Assembly (NCBI GenBank): GCA_032718475.1
Contig: JAUCBJ010001846.1
Coordinates: 310,001 to 374,000 of the forward strand
Length of the DNA stretch: 64,000 nucleotides
Origin: Nemertoderma westbladi
Taxonomy: Eukaryota > Animalia > Xenacoelomorpha
Direction: 5' to 3'
Each line of letters starts with the position of its first letter. Position 1 is the first letter of the stretch. The notes below the pieces were generated by a model. That model had not been told where the DNA came from. It saw nothing but the letters and a program-made list of their open reading frames with translations, and did no database searches. Positions 5,612 to 62,034 of the stretch are shown piece by piece. The position numbers were made by a program, and so were the translations under genes.

Positions 5612-6964
5612 ATGAAAAAATTATTGATGTCTACAGCGCTTATTGGGGCGTTGTTTGCTTCATCTGCGGTCGCGAAAGTGACCATCACAGGTGATGCTCG
5701 TTATCGTTACGCCAGTAACGGTTTATATGAAACCACTCAAGTAACAGGGGAGGCCTATCGTGCGCTTGCGTTTGCAACAACTAATACGCAAACGGCCACT
5801 GATCTGCTCACTGTCATGGGTATAACTGATTTATCCACTGCTAAGTCAGCTTTTTTGGAAAAGTTTGATCCTCGCTTTTATGATACTGCAGCGATTGCTG
5901 ACGTCGCGGCCTACAAAGCAGCGACCAGTGTTACTAGCTTAGCAGCAGCAGGCGCTTCAAGCGGTGAGTCTTCAGACAATCGTTTCCGTATTAATGTGAA
6001 TTTTGCCTCAGAAGATAAATCCATCAAGGGTCGCTTGCGCCTTCGCAGTGATGCTGGTTTTTTTGATACAAAGTCAAACTCAGGAAGACTACGTGTTGAC
6101 CAAGCCTATATCCAAGGTTCAGTACCCGGTGCAAAAGGCTTGAGTGTAAAAGTGGGTTCATTTAAACCATACTTAACACCAAATCATGTATTCACAGACT
6201 TAGTTGCCTTTACGGGTGTTGAGCTGGGTTACACCTCAGGCATGCTAAACGCCTTTTATCGCATGTATGAAAGTTCAGCTGTTGAAACAGAAACATCCGC
6301 TGCCTATAACTTAAACTATCAAAGTGATATTGGCATTAGTGGTTCATTTCAGGGCGTTACAGCCGGTGTTTATTTGGTATCAGACAATGACCAAACAGAT
6401 AAAAATGAAAAAGCCACCATCGCGTATGTAGACGGTGAGTACATGGGTGTTAATGTGGCGGGTGAATACTATGACGTAGATGGCACTGAAAGGGATGCTT
6501 GGTACGCTAGTGCTGGCATGAAGCACAATGAGTACGAGTTTGGTGCTTTTTACTTAGAGTTAGGTAAAGAAGCTTCAACAGGTAGCGACTTCAACCCCAT
6601 GGGTATTAGCATATTTGGTACTTCAGGTAGTTCGTATCTAACACCCATTACTAAGTTGAAAAACTTTGCCTCTTCAGTTGCAAGCAGCACTTTTTATTCA
6701 GCAACTGATCCAAGTGTTTATGGTGGTCAAATTAAGGGATCATTCAACGGCTTAGACCTTCAGTTAAGTTACGGTATTGCCGAGCTTAACCAGGATAAAA
6801 TACCGGTAAGAATTGGTGCTTTGGATACTAAACTCTCAGGGACTGACGATAGTTTCTATGACCTAGTGGTGGGTTATAAAATGGGGGCTTTAAAACTTCA
6901 AGCAAGCTATGGTTCATTCTTAGGTTTAACAACTTTTGGTGCTAATGTAGGCCTTAAATTCTAA
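5612..6964 (+). CDS. outer-membrane porin / major outer-membrane beta-barrel protein
   Basis: Signal peptide, TGDARYRY first strand, VDQAY motif, alternating beta-strand pattern, C-terminal Phe (VGLKF), AAGGA SD. Confidence 0.8.
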   Translation: MKKLLMSTALIGALFASSAVAKVTITGDARYRYASNGLYETTQVTGEAYRALAFATTNTQTATDLLTVMGITDLSTAKSAFLEKFDPRFYDTAAIADVAAYKAATSVTSLAAAGASSGESSDNRFRINVNFASEDKSIKGRLRLRSDAGFFDTKSNSGRLRVDQAYIQGSVPGAKGLSVKVGSFKPYLTPNHVFTDLVAFTGVELGYTSGMLNAFYRMYESSAVETETSAAYNLNYQSDIGISGSFQGVTAGVYLVSDNDQTDKNEKATIAYVDGEYMGVNVAGEYYDVDGTERDAWYASAGMKHNEYEFGAFYLELGKEASTGSDFNPMGISIFGTSGSSYLTPITKLKNFASSVASSTFYSATDPSVYGGQIKGSFNGLDLQLSYGIAELNQDKIPVRIGALDTKLSGTDDSFYDLVVGYKMGALKLQASYGSFLGLTTFGANVGLKF

Positions 6965-22786: not shown

Positions 22787-23068
22787 ATGCTTGATATCAA
22801 ACAATCACTTGTATCACTTAATCAATCACTAGTGGCTTGCTGGGTGGTTAAAAATAACGCCCTTCATAAACAATTTGAGCTACCTAACTTTACAGAAGCC
22901 ATGGGCTTGATGGTTAAAATTGGGTTGTTGGCTGAAAAAATGAACCACCATCCTGAAATGATCAATGTTTACAATAAATTAACCATCAATTTAAGCACCC
23001 ATGATACAAGTAGTATTTCTGAAAAAGATTTTCAACTTGCCACAAAAATTGAACAATTAATCAAATGA
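22787..23068 (+). CDS. phhB: pterin-4-alpha-carbinolamine dehydratase
   Basis: AEKMNHHPE and LSTHD motifs; ATG 22787 preferred as start. Confidence 0.92.
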   Translation: MLDIKQSLVSLNQSLVACWVVKNNALHKQFELPNFTEAMGLMVKIGLLAEKMNHHPEMINVYNKLTINLSTHDTSSISEKDFQLATKIEQLIK

Positions 23069-26609: not shown

Positions 26610-27169
26610 GTGAAGTTATCTTTAGTAGTTGTTATTTCATTGTTACGTGTGTATCTCAACCAACACTTCAGCCAGTTGATAGAACAGGCTCAGCATATGT
26701 TAACTATAAAGGACTGATCGTGTTTAAACTCCCACAGGGGGAAAATTGGTACGAGTTAAGTAGTAGAAAGGGTACTGTTGCCTATGGTAAGAAACAACCA
26801 ACAAAAGATCATATATTTTTCACGTCACCTACAATAACGAACTTTACAACCAGATTTAATTCGCCTGAAGAATTTCTGAAGTTTGCCAAACAATCTAGGC
26901 TTGAAAGTATACCTAAGGATAGATTCAAAATATTAAAATACGAAGAAAAACTTGAGAAATCGCGTTCAGAATTTTGTACAAAATTCATGTTAAAAGCAGA
27001 AGAATATGGAAAAGGTATCATGGAATCACGCGGGTATACTTGTTTGCATCCACACTATCCTGATCTTGGCGTTACGATTCTATATTCTGAAAGAACAAAG
27101 GGTCCTCATGTAAATGACCAAACGCGCCAAGAAGGTGAGGATTTTATCAATTCATTCGAACTTAGATAG
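26610..27169 (+). pseudogene. hypothetical lipoprotein with a frameshift in its signal peptide
   Basis: GTG 26610 reads MKLSLVVVISLL; the -1 frame from 26648 reads CVSQPTLQ... and runs into ORF 26720-27169. Confidence 0.65.
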
Positions 27170-27874: not shown

Positions 27875-28953
27875 CATTAAAATGCGGTATTGTGGGGTTG
27901 CCCAATGTAGGAAAATCCTCTTTATTTAACACCTTAACTCATTCTGACATTCCCTCTGAAAATTATCCATTTTGTACCATTGATCCCAATATAGGTGTGG
28001 TGGAGGTGCCTGACAAGCGCTTGGATACGCTTCAAAAAATCGTCAACGCACAGCGCGTGGTGCCGGCTATTGTTGAATTTGTGGATATTGCCGGTTTAGT
28101 GAAAGGGGCATCAAAAGGGGAGGGGTTAGGCAACCAGTTTTTACACCATATTCGTCAGGTTGATGCCATTATGCATGTTGTACGCTTCTTTGAAGATGAC
28201 GATGTTACCCATGTGGATGGCAGCGTAGACCCCATGAGGGATGTCCAAACCATTGAAGGGGAGCTAATTTTAGCTGATTTAGAGGTATTAATGCGAGGGT
28301 GTGATCGTGTGAAAAAACTTGCTCGTTCTGGGGATAAACAGGCCAAGCAACTATTGGATGTGATTGAAGCAGGAATTAGCTTGCTTGATCAAACCAAACC
28401 AATACAACAATTAGTCCATGAAGATATTGAACTACTGAGTGAATATAATTTATTAACCGCCAAGCCCGTTTTATATTTGATTAATATCGATGAAAAAACC
28501 TATCAACAAGACGAACCACTAAGTACATTACGGTCACTAAAATCGTTGGGTGAAAATTGTTTAACAATTTGCGCTCGATTAGAAGAAGAACTTTCCCAAT
28601 TGGATCAAGCAGATCAAACCCTGTTTTTAAGGGAAATGGGCTTATCTGAACCGGGTTTGGATCGAGTGATTCGTTATGTTTATAACATGCTAGGGTTGCA
28701 TACCTTTTTCACAGCTGGCCAAAAGGAAGTGCGTGCGTGGACCATTCAAAAAAATGACACCGCTGTTGATGCGGCCGGTAAAATTCACAGCGATTTCGCC
28801 AAAGGCTTTATTCGGGCTGAAACCGTGCATTATGAACAATTTGTTCAGCATAAGGGCTGGGTAGGTACACGCTCAGCAGGGGTGATGCAACCCAATGGGA
28901 AAGACTATATTGTTTGTGATGGGGATGTGATGAATTTTCTTTTTAATGTGTAG
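27871..28953 (+). CDS. ychF: ribosome-binding ATPase YchF
   Basis: [31 protein letters not shown]. Confidence 0.98.
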
Positions 28954-28980
28954 TTTTATGACCAATTATTGGAGGTTTGT

Positions 28981-30303
28981 ATGAAAAGAACTGTGTATTT
29001 TTTTCTAAGTTTATTAATTGTTGGGTTGCTGGCAGGATTTTTGATTTTAAACAACACCCAAACATCAAAGTCGCTTAATTTAAGTACGGTGACCTGCCCA
29101 AAGACACCGCTTGATCAGTTCGGCACAATTAGAAATACACCCCCTAGTTGTTTTGATTATTATGCATTCGCCCAAATGTGGTTGCCTGAATCTTGTATCG
29201 CAAAAAATAACAGCGGTTATGTCGCGCATCAACGTGAATGCCAAAAGCTACATCAAACATTTGATGACCAAATGAAGCCCCATGGTTTGTGGCAGAGTTT
29301 TTTCACAACAACTTCACGTGCAGCTTTTCCTGCTGATTGCATTGATGAAGCGTTCAATTTTGAACAATTACCTTTGCAGCTTAGACAATCACTGAATCGG
29401 TTGTTCTTGGCGCCTGTTAGGGGTTTAAAGGCACATGAATGGGAAAAACATGGTACCTGTGATGGGTCATCTCAAGTTGCCTATTTTCAAAAAATTATTG
29501 ATTACAATGAAAAATTTGCCCAAGCTGGCAAGTTGATTCGAGATGCAGTTGGCAGTACTTTGAAATATGAGCAAATTATTAATGCTTATGGGCGTGAAGG
29601 GCAGGTATATTTGGAGTGCCATCAATATGAGAATGGACAATACCTGAACCAAATATTTAGCCTTTGGAGCAAAGCAGGCGAACCCTTGGAGGTTGACTTG
29701 CATTTTCCTAGCGCTTGTCGCCCAGATAAGGCGATTCATATTCGACCAACTGCTGAGTTTGTGTCTGTTGATGATTGGAAAACACATTTTAGCGAAACAA
29801 GAGAACAACCCGTTGTTGTGGCGTTTGATATTGACGATACTGTGTTGTTCTCATCCCCTGGATTTTATTATTTAAATCAAGAGGGTGTCGGCTTTAGTTC
29901 ATCTAAATTTTGGAACCGAATGAATAATGGTTTAGATGAGTTTAGTTTGCCGAAAAAAATTGGGCAAACGCTTATTGATTTTCATCAAAGTCGGGGTGAT
30001 GCCATTTATTTTATTACAAGGCGTGGCAAATCATCTTTTGAGCAGGTGACTGACATCATTAAAAAGGTATTTAACATTCAAAAAATGAACACTGTTATTT
30101 TTACTGACTTAAAAACCAAAGTGTCTGATATTCAAGCCCTTGGCACTGACGTGTATTATGGTGATGCGGATTCAGATATGATTGAAGCTAAAAAGGCGGG
30201 TGCACAGGGGGTTAGAATAATGCGTGCGGTTAATTCAAATAATCCAGATGGCGCACATGATGGTGCATTTGGTGAGGTGGTGATTTTAGGCTCTGCTAAT
30301 TAA
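28981..30303 (+). CDS. RNase T2 - class B acid phosphatase (AphA) fusion with N-terminal signal/anchor
   Basis: T2 motifs FDYY..W..C, HGLW, HEWEKHGTC; AphA motifs FDIDDTVLFSSPGF, MNNGLDEFSLPK, YGDADSD, GAFGE; GGAGG SD. Confidence 0.9.
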   Translation: MKRTVYFFLSLLIVGLLAGFLILNNTQTSKSLNLSTVTCPKTPLDQFGTIRNTPPSCFDYYAFAQMWLPESCIAKNNSGYVAHQRECQKLHQTFDDQMKPHGLWQSFFTTTSRAAFPADCIDEAFNFEQLPLQLRQSLNRLFLAPVRGLKAHEWEKHGTCDGSSQVAYFQKIIDYNEKFAQAGKLIRDAVGSTLKYEQIINAYGREGQVYLECHQYENGQYLNQIFSLWSKAGEPLEVDLHFPSACRPDKAIHIRPTAEFVSVDDWKTHFSETREQPVVVAFDIDDTVLFSSPGFYYLNQEGVGFSSSKFWNRMNNGLDEFSLPKKIGQTLIDFHQSRGDAIYFITRRGKSSFEQVTDIIKKVFNIQKMNTVIFTDLKTKVSDIQALGTDVYYGDADSDMIEAKKAGAQGVRIMRAVNSNNPDGAHDGAFGEVVILGSAN

Positions 30304-30323: not shown

Positions 30324-30869
30324 CTATACTAAGTTGACTCTGTTTTTAAACCAGCCGTAAACATATTTTTCATCTTTTTGTCGACGTTCTGCCAGCTCAA
30401 TGTAGAATGCGCCTTGCAGAGAATTGAGCATGTTCAATAAAAGATTTTCATTGTCTCTTTTTTGCATAAAAGCTATCAGTGCCTTTAATATTTTGGGACC
30501 AATATCGCCATCAACTTTAATGTCGCTGTAATATCGTTGGCGATTATTTAAAACATTTAAGCAGCGTTGTAAAAATTCCGCTGATCACCCAACCCCCATA
30601 TTAACCCCTGTGTCTACAAGCTCTTGTGCAATTTTGGGGGCAATTTGCTCAACTTCATCCAAGCTAAGGGCATCCCAATATTTATGCGCGTATATTTCAT
30701 AGGCGATTGATCGAGGTAAATCTTTCATTGAACCTGAAAAATCATGTCGACGCGCCATTGCAGCCGTAATACCATAATTGGTTTCCCCGCCTGAATCGTC
30801 TGGATCATTAACATAACCACCTTCTACTTTAATGATGTGATTAATAATTGTTTCTTTGAGAGATGACAT
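30324..30869 (-). pseudogene. glycoside hydrolase family 108 lysozyme with PG-binding domain, interrupted by an in-frame TGA
   Basis: EGGYVNDPDDSGGETNYGIT...NMGVG*SAEFLQRCLN...VDGDIGP...YGWFKNRV; same frame on both sides of TGA 30585-30587. Confidence 0.88.
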
Positions 30870-60449: not shown

Positions 60450-61076
60450 ATGGCAAGATATATTGGTTCAAAATGTAAAGTTTCAAGGCGTGAAGGTCAG
60501 GACCTTTCGCTCAAAAGTGGTGTAAGGTCTTTGGATACAAAGTGTAAGTTAGATCAACTTCCGGGTCATTTAGGTGCTTCGGCTAGAAGGCGAACACCTT
60601 CTGGTTATTGTGCTCAGCTTCGTGAAAAACAAAAAGTCAAAAGAATTTATGGTGTTTTAGAAAAGCAATTTGTTAATTATTATAAAAATTCTGTCAGGTC
60701 TAAAGAGCCTACAGGTGAACATTTGCTTTTGTCTTTGGAAAGAAGGTTAGATAATGTTGTGTATCGTATGGGTTTTGGTGTGACACGCGCAGAAGCTCGT
60801 CAACTAGTGAGCCATCGTTGTGTTTTAGTCAACGACAAGGTTGTTAATATTGCATCTTATCAGGTACACCCTGAAGATATTATATCAGTTCGAGATAAGG
60901 CAAAATCTCAACTGAGAATAAAGTTTGCGATTGAGCAGGCTAGAATAAGGGGAGTACCTGAGTGGATGCAGGTTGACTTTGACAATTTATCTGGTAAATT
61001 TAGCGCCTATCCTAAAAGAAGTGATCTACAGGCTGATATTAAAGAAAATTTAATTATTGAATTTTATTCAAAATAG
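60450..61076 (+). CDS. rpsD: 30S ribosomal protein S4
   Basis: [17 protein letters not shown]. Confidence 0.98.
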
Positions 61077-61086
61077 GTTTCAAAGA

Positions 61087-62034
61087 ATGACAAATATACC
61101 AAATTTATTAAAGCCCAAAATTACTAAAATAGATGTAAAAAACGATTTTTCTGCACAAGTGATTATCAAACCATTTGAGCGGGGCTTTGGTCACACAGTC
61201 GGTTGTGCTTTACGTCGTATATTACTTTCATTAATTCCTGGTGCAGCTGTTACGTCGGTAAGAATAGAAGGGATTGATCATGAATATTCTGCTTTTGAGG
61301 GCTTACAAGAGGATATTATTAATGTTTTATTAAACCTTAAGCAGCTTTCAGTTGCATTGCATGAAAACACCAAAGAAGTAGATTTGTTGATTGAAAAAAA
61401 AGTAGCTGGCGATATTTTGGCTAGTGATATTCAGCATGGCCATAATGTCACCATTGCCAATCCTAATCTTGTAATTGCTCATTTAACCAAGCCAGTTGAT
61501 TTTAAGATGACACTTAAAGTACGTGCAGGTTGTGGTTACATGACAGCCAATGATATACGGGAAGCCTATCCAGTGGAGGAAAAAGCACTACTGCTTGATA
61601 CCGCTTTTACACCTATCAGACGCGTGGGTTATGAGGTTGAAAATATTCGTGTAGGTGATCAAGCCAATTTAGATTGTTTGATATTTAATATTGAAACAAA
61701 TGGTTCTGTCGGCTTTTCAGAAGTAGTACAGTCTGCTTCTGCCATGTTAGTTGGGCAGCTTCAAACATTTGTAGATTTTGAGTTGTTAAATTTTGAAGAG
61801 GAAGAAGCCTCTGTGGTATCTAAAAAGGATCAGGCACAGAAATTGATGATTGATGATCTAGATCTAACGTCTAGGTCATTAAATTGTTTAAAATTTGAAG
61901 ATATATTAACGGTTGAAGAGCTATTAAAAAGAAGTGAGAAAGATTTATTAAATACTCCAAATTTAGGCAAAAAGTCGCTTAATGAAATTAAAGATGCTTT
62001 AGCGGCTAAAAACTTAGCTTTAGCGCCTCGGTAG
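61087..62034 (+). CDS. rpoA: RNA polymerase alpha subunit
   Basis: [18 protein letters not shown]; ATG 61087 preferred as start. Confidence 0.98.

What the first reader, a model, noticed from the sequence alone, without database searches (positions are those of the whole stretch)
28981..30303. RNase T2 fused to an AphA class B phosphatase: single-protein RNA-to-nucleoside scavenger
Seen: one uninterrupted ORF with a hydrophobic N-terminus, both RNase T2 catalytic segments (HGLW at 29281, HEWEKHGTC near 29433) and a full AphA HAD domain (FDIDDT near 29824, YGDADSD). Established: T2 RNases release 3'-NMPs, and AphA dephosphorylates 3'- and 5'-nucleotides. Inference: an extracytoplasmic two-step enzyme that converts RNA to nucleosides plus phosphate, which the PfkB nucleoside kinase at 23065 could salvage. 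I do not know of this architecture being described.
Basis: partly seen in the sequence, partly recalled or inferred. Interest (0 to 1): 0.8.

Follow-up and report, generated by a model that had tools for sequence, protein, structure and literature searches.

The report
RNase–phosphatase fusion for RNA scavenging
One bacterial gene joins an RNA-cutting enzyme to a phosphate-removing enzyme, a rare pairing also seen in 14 other proteins; the product is likely exported and would break RNA down to nucleosides and phosphate, probably as a phosphorus source.

Summary
The fusion is real. ORF 28981-30303 (440 aa) has a hydrophobic N-terminus, an RNase T2 domain and an AphA class B phosphatase domain, all catalytic residues intact. 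One contig spans the gene, and 14 other proteins share the layout, 11 of 15 with both motif sets; the junction is ungapped in 14 of 14 aligned. AlphaFold gives both folds (pLDDT 93.5, pTM 0.86). It is rare: 0 of 400 and 0 of 401 sampled genomes, 2 of 122 in one family. Likely action: RNA to 2',3'-cyclic NMP to 3'-NMP to nucleoside plus phosphate outside the cytoplasm. Phosphate scavenging is therefore favoured, but untested; ring opening may limit it. An S1/P1 nuclease-AphA fusion (one protein) shows the same logic. No description found in six paper searches; analogous systems are known. New variant, moderate interest.

The parts
28971..28975 (+). ribosome-binding site (GGAGG), 5 nt before the ATG
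   Evidence: sequence
28981..30303 (+). RNase T2-AphA fusion gene, 440 aa (P0001)
28981..29052 (+). N-terminal basic then hydrophobic segment (residues 1-24): likely signal peptide or uncleaved membrane anchor; no lipobox cysteine
   Evidence: hydropathy scan, predicted helix 2-24; no signal-peptide predictor was available
29152..29745 (+). RNase T2 domain (about residues 58-255); CAS I His101 at 29281, CAS II His152, Glu153, Lys156, His157 from 29434; all 8 cysteines of the protein lie in residues 39-246
29731..29778 (+). domain junction (residues 251-266), no gaps in 14 of 14 aligned members; pLDDT 89-98 in blocks 241-270
29749..30300 (+). AphA-type class B acid phosphatase (HAD IIIB) domain, residues 257-440; Asp283, Asp285, Thr346, Lys380, Asp395, Asp399

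Best explanation
The gene encodes one protein with an RNase T2 domain and an AphA-type phosphatase domain that likely acts outside the cytoplasm and would turn RNA into nucleosides and free phosphate, probably to supply phosphorus. Shown: both domains, all catalytic residues, a conserved junction, a small family. Inferred steps: (1) the N-terminus exports or anchors it and the T2 cysteines pair; (2) His101 and His157 cleave RNA to 2',3'-cyclic nucleotides; (3) the same site opens the ring to 3'-NMP, probably slowly and base-dependently; (4) the Mg-dependent four-aspartate site removes the 3'-phosphate; (5) phosphate is imported, while nucleosides are a by-product or secondary nutrient. It is an accessory gene that has landed at different places in unrelated genomes. 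I put the two-step chemistry at about 0.8 and phosphate as the main gain at about 0.5.
For: Domains and sites. His101 and His157 align with the two positions that read Phe in the PDB RNase I mutant 9iot; Lys380 aligns with Lys154 of the Salmonella AphA mutants 1z88 and 2aut. 10 of 14 aligned members keep all 14 scored positions over 28-51% identity, plus P0333 by motif. Model pLDDT 93.5, pTM 0.86; AphA TM 0.81-0.83 and T2 TM up to 0.72 by target length. Hydrophobic N-terminus in 12 of 14. AphA prefers 3'- and 5'-NMP (PMC8475336, passages); RNase I yields 3'-NMP through cyclic intermediates (PMC8136782, passages); a T2 RNase plus a HAD phosphatase run this pathway as separate proteins in plant vacuoles (PMC12369478, abstract and passages). 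P0077 joins a different nuclease (S1/P1, E 3.5e-52) to AphA. Carriers G479 and G408: purF and pyrB present; no CNT, NupG, BMP, PnuC carrier or nucleoside phosphorylase over cut-off. G408 has PhoX about 1 kb from a second T2 gene; G479 has a PiT and a PhoU-like gene 6-8 kb away. Two copies are modelled as a dimer through the AphA domains: score 0.64, best of 3 controls 0.00, mark reached by 20 of 30 solved pairs and 1 of 23 solved singles, runs agree in 93% of contacts, pLDDT 90 or more; this may be memory of solved AphA oligomers.
Against: No activity, expression or localisation data. No Pho box above chance upstream in 4 of 4 regions (93-499 of 500 shuffles as good); G479 has no PhoB-like match at 1e-40 and no PhoX. 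AphA does not act on diesters, and T2 enzymes open cyclic nucleotides slowly or for some bases only (PMC8475336, PMC12369478); no carrier-specific CpdB-like helper was seen (one 632-aa PF02872 match, also in non-carriers). 4 of 14 members have damaged T2 sites (one also a dead phosphatase), so coupling is not obligatory. G479 has a nucleoside hydrolase and G408 a weak nucleobase-permease match. The physiological argument rests on two related genomes, not on the window's genome.
Confidence: 0.5

Rival explanations
1. Same chemistry, but the main gain is nucleosides or bases for salvage.
For: E. coli AphA and UshA are needed for growth on purine nucleotides (PMC8475336, passage). A PfkB orthologue is present in both carriers; G479 has a nucleoside hydrolase, G408 a 41-bit PF00860 match. 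The window organism is fast-evolving (RpoA at most 50% identical among the 120 best hits listed), as host-dependent bacteria often are (recalled).
Against: purF and pyrB present in 2 of 2 carriers; four nucleoside-carrier families and PF01048 not found in either; PfkB unlinked and shared with non-carriers.
Confidence: 0.2
2. The two domains are tethered but not coupled: a general periplasmic phosphatase with an optional RNase passenger.
For: P0042 and P0059 keep the phosphatase with only a T2 remnant; P0017 has His152 changed; P0022 has lost both sites. Stand-alone T2 proteins P0015 and P0027 fall among the fusions in the T2 trees. Both domains mostly occur alone.
Against: Product-substrate match of the two activities; ungapped junction in 14 of 14; most members keep both sites across deep divergence; a second nuclease family is fused to AphA.
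Confidence: 0.13
3. A host-directed ectoenzyme of symbionts: it destroys host or extracellular RNA and makes adenosine to damp host responses, as the Leishmania 3'-nucleotidase/nuclease does.
For: P0006 is named as from a mussel gill symbiont; the window organism looks like a fast-evolving lineage; precedent in PMC13232948 (abstract).
Against: G408 has photolyase genes within 5 kb of the fusion, which suggests a light-exposed life (inference); P0004 is from a Marinobacterium MAG, a genus recalled as free-living; 120 of 122 genomes of the family lack the gene.
Confidence: 0.1
4. The AphA domain works mainly as a phosphotransferase, moving phosphate from 3'-NMP to nucleoside acceptors, so RNA is converted into 5'-nucleotides.
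For: AphA transfers phosphate from 3'- or 5'-mononucleotides to nucleosides (PMC8475336, passage); tethering would raise local donor and acceptor levels (inference).
Against: Hydrolysis is expected to dominate in dilute surroundings; no nucleotide importer was looked for.
Confidence: 0.04

Closest known systems
E. coli / Salmonella AphA, class B acid phosphatase (TIGR01672, PF03767; PDB 2b82, 1z5g)
   Same: About 40% identity over the domain, four aspartates and the lysine kept, same fold; exported; dimer modelled through this domain.
   Different: AphA is a stand-alone tetramer of about 25 kDa chains (PMC10694654, passages); here the N-terminal part is replaced by a T2 domain and the score is under the equivalog cut-off.
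RNase T2 family: E. coli RNase I, plant S-like RNases (PF00445)
   Same: CAS I and CAS II histidines, cysteines, fold.
   Different: About 20% identity to solved members; belongs to a separate bacterial subgroup; carries a phosphatase in the same chain.
Arabidopsis vacuolar RNS2 + VSP3/PAP26; tomato RNase LE phosphate scavenging (PMC12369478)
   Same: T2 RNase followed by a HAD-superfamily phosphatase, giving nucleoside plus phosphate.
   Different: Separate proteins, eukaryotic, with an extra cyclic phosphodiesterase proposed.
Bacillus YhcR (PMC4714964, PMC12445088, PMC12020853 passages)
   Same: Surface nuclease that releases 3'-mononucleotides and is annotated with a nucleotidase C-terminal domain in the same chain.
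   Different: Unrelated nuclease and phosphatase folds (recalled); sortase-anchored in Gram-positives.
Leishmania 3'-nucleotidase/nuclease (S1/P1 class I; PMC13232948 abstract)
   Same: One exported protein with nuclease and 3'-nucleotidase activity.
   Different: Different family; serves a purine auxotroph, whereas the tested carriers here have purF and pyrB.
Vibrio cholerae Xds/Dns + CpdB/UshA/PhoX (PMC4714964 passages)
   Same: Extracellular nucleic acid used as a phosphate source by nuclease then nucleotidase.
   Different: Several genes, DNA substrate, metallophosphoesterase folds.

Membership tests
RNase T2 family | Profile match over the curated cut-off | tested here: met
   PF00445 62.9 bits against 26
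RNase T2 family | CAS I and CAS II with two catalytic histidines (PMC8136782) | tested here: met
   His101, His152, Glu153, Lys156, His157
RNase T2 family | T2 fold | tested here: met
   Foldseek E 1.4e-9, TM 0.72 to 1vd1, on a predicted model
RNase T2 family | Metal-independent RNA cleavage to 2',3'-cyclic then 3'-phosphate ends | not testable with these tools
   needs an assay
Class B acid phosphatase (HAD IIIB) | PF03767 over cut-off and DDDD motif (PMC8475336) | tested here: met
   53.4 bits against 27; Asp283, Asp285, Asp395, Asp399, Lys380
Class B acid phosphatase (HAD IIIB) | AphA fold | tested here: met
   Foldseek E 2.7e-19, TM 0.81, rmsd 1.6-2.3 to 2b82 and 1rmt
AphA equivalog (TIGR01672) | Whole-protein score over 195.8 bits | tested here: not met
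   165.6 bits, profile positions 45-236 of 237: AphA-like domain, not filed as AphA itself
AphA equivalog (TIGR01672) | Homotetramer | tested here: inconclusive
   Only two copies were modelled: 0.64 against best control 0.00, possibly from memory of solved AphA; four copies exceed the size limit
Exported enzyme | Signal peptide or membrane anchor | tested here: inconclusive
   Hydropathy only: 12 of 14 members hydrophobic at the N-terminus, lipobox-like cysteine in 2 of 14, none in P0001
Pho regulon member | Pho box upstream | tested here: not met
   Recalled E. coli consensus matched no better than shuffles in 4 of 4 regions; a crude test

The most novel reading that the evidence does not exclude
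A self-sufficient RNA-to-phosphate ectoenzyme: the rigid fusion couples the sites so that the phosphatase pulls the slow ring-opening step, letting one horizontally spread gene do what needs three proteins (RNase, cyclic phosphodiesterase, nucleotidase) in enterobacteria and plants; with the S1/P1-AphA fusion it marks a recurring class of single-gene nucleic-acid phosphate miners.
Probability: 0.25. Interest if true: 0.65.

Novelty: new variant of a known kind. Interest (0 to 1): 0.45.

Why it matters
The role of bacterial T2 RNases is still uncertain (PMC8136782, passage), and this fusion points directly at their downstream partner. It gives one purifiable protein in which coupling of RNA cleavage, ring opening and dephosphorylation can be measured, with natural half-dead variants as controls. 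If active it would show how some bacteria tap extracellular RNA as a phosphorus source with one gene, and could serve as a one-enzyme RNA-to-nucleoside reagent. Both domains and the pathway logic are known, so the surprise is moderate.

Tried and rejected
Misassembly or chance read-through: rejected (and the homologs). Common architecture: rejected; no record covering 80% of the query in 72,556 plasmid or 50,697 phage records, no Atlas cluster of the fusion among those listed (a blank there shows no novelty), none in 400 and 401 sampled genomes (one further genome unscored in 44). No RNA holder listed. Own genome not held; cluster look-up could not be made, so most members have no organism or neighbourhood. 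Promoter and terminator scan: no more sites than shuffles. Co-occurrence of separate AphA and T2 genes: 2 of 5 AphA genomes against 26 of 394 others, p 0.04, centre genome left out, confounded by kinship, not used. Single origin: AU tests do not reject one clade (AphA half p 0.274 on 48 of 168 rows; T2 half p 0.643 on 36 of 153 rows, with two stand-alone rows added after seeing a tree), but free trees do not recover it, so it is not shown. First fold with 6 rows was poor (pLDDT 64). Atlas search with P0077 gave no usable hit. Earlier findings: none. Paper searches for the fusion: searches gave 0 papers; others (6 listed; 2 listed; 15 of 16 listed) were seen as listings only and none names it; most subscription papers and InterPro/CDART were not searchable, and no supplements were read.

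Full report
Observation. The window holds one stop-free frame at 28981-30303 (440 aa, P0001) behind a GGAGG site, 27 bases after the ychF stop. Pfam finds RNase T2 at residues 58-227 (E 5.5e-17) and Acid_phosphat_B at 274-419 (E 3.2e-14), both over cut-off; TIGR01672 AphA scores 165.6 bits against a cut-off of 195.8. In the only run that holds the stretch, which may be its source, one contig of depth 21.9 covers the whole gene without differences.

Active sites. T2: His101, Trp104, His152, Glu153, Lys156, His157, Cys160; His101 and His157 align with the two Phe positions of the RNase I mutant chain 9iot, and two such histidines are required for cleavage (PMC8136782, passage). Phosphatase: Asp283, Asp285, Thr346, Arg348, Lys380, Asp395, Asp399; Lys380 aligns with the residue changed in the AphA Lys154 mutants; class B enzymes have two essential aspartate pairs (PMC8475336, passage). 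All 8 cysteines lie in the T2 half. With a 71-row alignment AlphaFold2 gives pLDDT 93.5 and pTM 0.86, the junction included; Foldseek returns AphA (TM 0.81-0.83) and T2 RNases (TM up to 0.72) and no chain with both (listed rows). Two copies of residues 36-440 were modelled as a dimer through the phosphatase domains, 0.64 against a best control of 0.00 (mark reached by 20 of 30 solved pairs, 1 of 23 singles; contacts agree 93%; pLDDT 90 or more); solved AphA oligomers exist (PMC10694654, passages), so this may be memory.

Family. One search gave 5 proteins with both Pfam domains among 10 hits (named: a Marinobacterium MAG; the Bathymodiolus thermophilus gill symbiont). One search listed the best 150 of 503 hits; of 31 that I scanned, 5 more had both domains (P0012, 13, 14, 16, 22), and P0017, P0042, P0059 had AphA plus a damaged or remnant T2 part. 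Genome G408 added P0333. That makes 15 distinct proteins including P0001. Of the 14 aligned, 10 keep all 14 scored positions, P0017 has His152 changed, P0022 has lost the second T2 histidine and two aspartates, and P0042 and P0059 have lost both T2 motifs but keep the phosphatase; P0333 has all four motifs. The 11 intact members are 28-51% identical to each other. Junction residues 251-266 align without a gap in 14 of 14, which favours one fusion event; trees neither recover nor reject one clade. 12 of 14 have a hydrophobic N-terminus and 2 a lipobox-like cysteine. One protein, P0077, joins an S1/P1 nuclease with its motifs to an AphA domain from another part of the tree; it is a single sequence.

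Range and context. The fusion was not found in 400 scored genomes drawn from the class of G001 (one unscored), where 29 had a T2 and 6 an AphA match alone, nor in 401 from the order of G002. In the family of G153, picked by 68% HolA identity to the symbiont locus L081, 2 of 122 genomes carry it, G479 and G408. The neighbourhoods share nothing: ychF and a broken lysozyme gene in the window, tyrS and DUF4145 in G479, a tripartite tricarboxylate transporter in G408. This is the pattern of an accessory, horizontally moved gene (inference). GC and third-position GC of the gene (0.39, 0.33) fall within those of 11 other window genes. The window organism is a gammaproteobacterium-like lineage whose RpoA is at most 50% identical to the 120 best hits listed (only 7999 candidates scored); its genome is not held.

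What the product is for. G479 and G408 both have purF and pyrB. Neither has a match over cut-off to CNT, NupG, BMP or PnuC carriers or to nucleoside phosphorylase, while the controls rang in 3, 4, 6, 4 and 14 of 14 named genomes. G479 has a nucleoside hydrolase and G408 a weak nucleobase-permease match. The PfkB orthologue is in both carriers and in both non-carriers tested of that family, unlinked. So auxotrophy is not needed and the PfkB link is coincidental; phosphate is the more likely gain. Positive evidence for that is thin: G408 has PhoX beside a second T2 gene and G479 a PiT gene nearby, but G479 lacks PhoX and a PhoB-like match, and no Pho box stands out.

Mechanism. Inferred: export; cleavage to 2',3'-cyclic NMP; ring opening at the T2 site; dephosphorylation of 3'-NMP. 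RNase I gives 3'-phosphates through cyclic intermediates (PMC8136782); AphA prefers 3'- and 5'-NMP but spares diesters (PMC8475336). The weak step is ring opening: Arabidopsis RNS2 opens cyclic AMP but not cyclic UMP, and tomato T2 enzymes do it slowly (PMC12369478, abstract and passages). The only PF02872 match in the carriers is a 632-aa frame also present in non-carriers (probably SoxB, recalled, not tested), so no helper phosphodiesterase was seen. Rivals: nucleoside salvage (0.2), uncoupled tether (0.13), host-directed ectoenzyme (0.1), phosphotransfer (0.04).

Comparison and novelty. It works like RNS2 plus VSP3 in plants, RNase I with AphA or CpdB in enterobacteria (the pairing is my inference), Bacillus YhcR (PMC4714964, PMC12445088, PMC12020853, passages) and the Leishmania 3'-nucleotidase/nuclease (PMC13232948, abstract). 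Its domains are members of PF00445 and PF03767; the protein is not AphA by the equivalog test. Six searches of open-access full text found no description of the fusion (listings only), and the two named members are called hypothetical proteins; architecture databases and subscription papers were out of reach. Verdict: real, rare, apparently undescribed arrangement of known parts with a clear and testable function: new variant of a known kind, interest 0.45.

Noticed in passing
window 28390-28949: The 3' half of ychF is a separate contig at about double depth (53.9 against 21.9-27.9) in run X1, and a 12.9-kb contig not in the window joins at 28390; the window has one copy. Suggests a repeat from an element inserted at ychF or a second strain, so the link between ychF and the fusion gene is not secure.
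   Followed up: partly
window 30324-30869 (-): Glycoside hydrolase 108 plus PG_binding_3 lysozyme gene with an in-frame TGA at 30585-30587; TGA is an ordinary stop in other window genes, so likely a pseudogene.
   Followed up: partly
P0077: S1/P1 nuclease fused to an AphA-like domain, 491 aa with a hydrophobic N-terminus: the same logic with another nuclease; family size unknown.
   Followed up: partly
window 61057-62034: RpoA is at most 50% identical to the best hits listed: a deep or fast-evolving gammaproteobacterium-like lineage without close relatives in the search.
   Followed up: partly
window 26720-27169 and 5612-6964: Two ORFs without a Pfam match: 149 aa inserted between rplY and pth, and 450 aa before mnmA.
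   Followed up: no
L178:18-2151 and L179:1402-3262: Stand-alone T2 genes next to other scavenging enzymes: an endonuclease I family gene in G414 and PhoX in G408.
   Followed up: no
P0065, P0087, P0130, L086: Proteins with two T2 domains in tandem.
   Followed up: no
P0117, P0120, P0121, P0140, P0141: AphA-like domains behind other N-terminal regions, one with a BsuPI domain, four without a Pfam match there.
   Followed up: no
L192:5219-6046: A stand-alone T2 of the same subgroup among transposase-like fragments in G835 (fragments judged by eye).
   Followed up: partly
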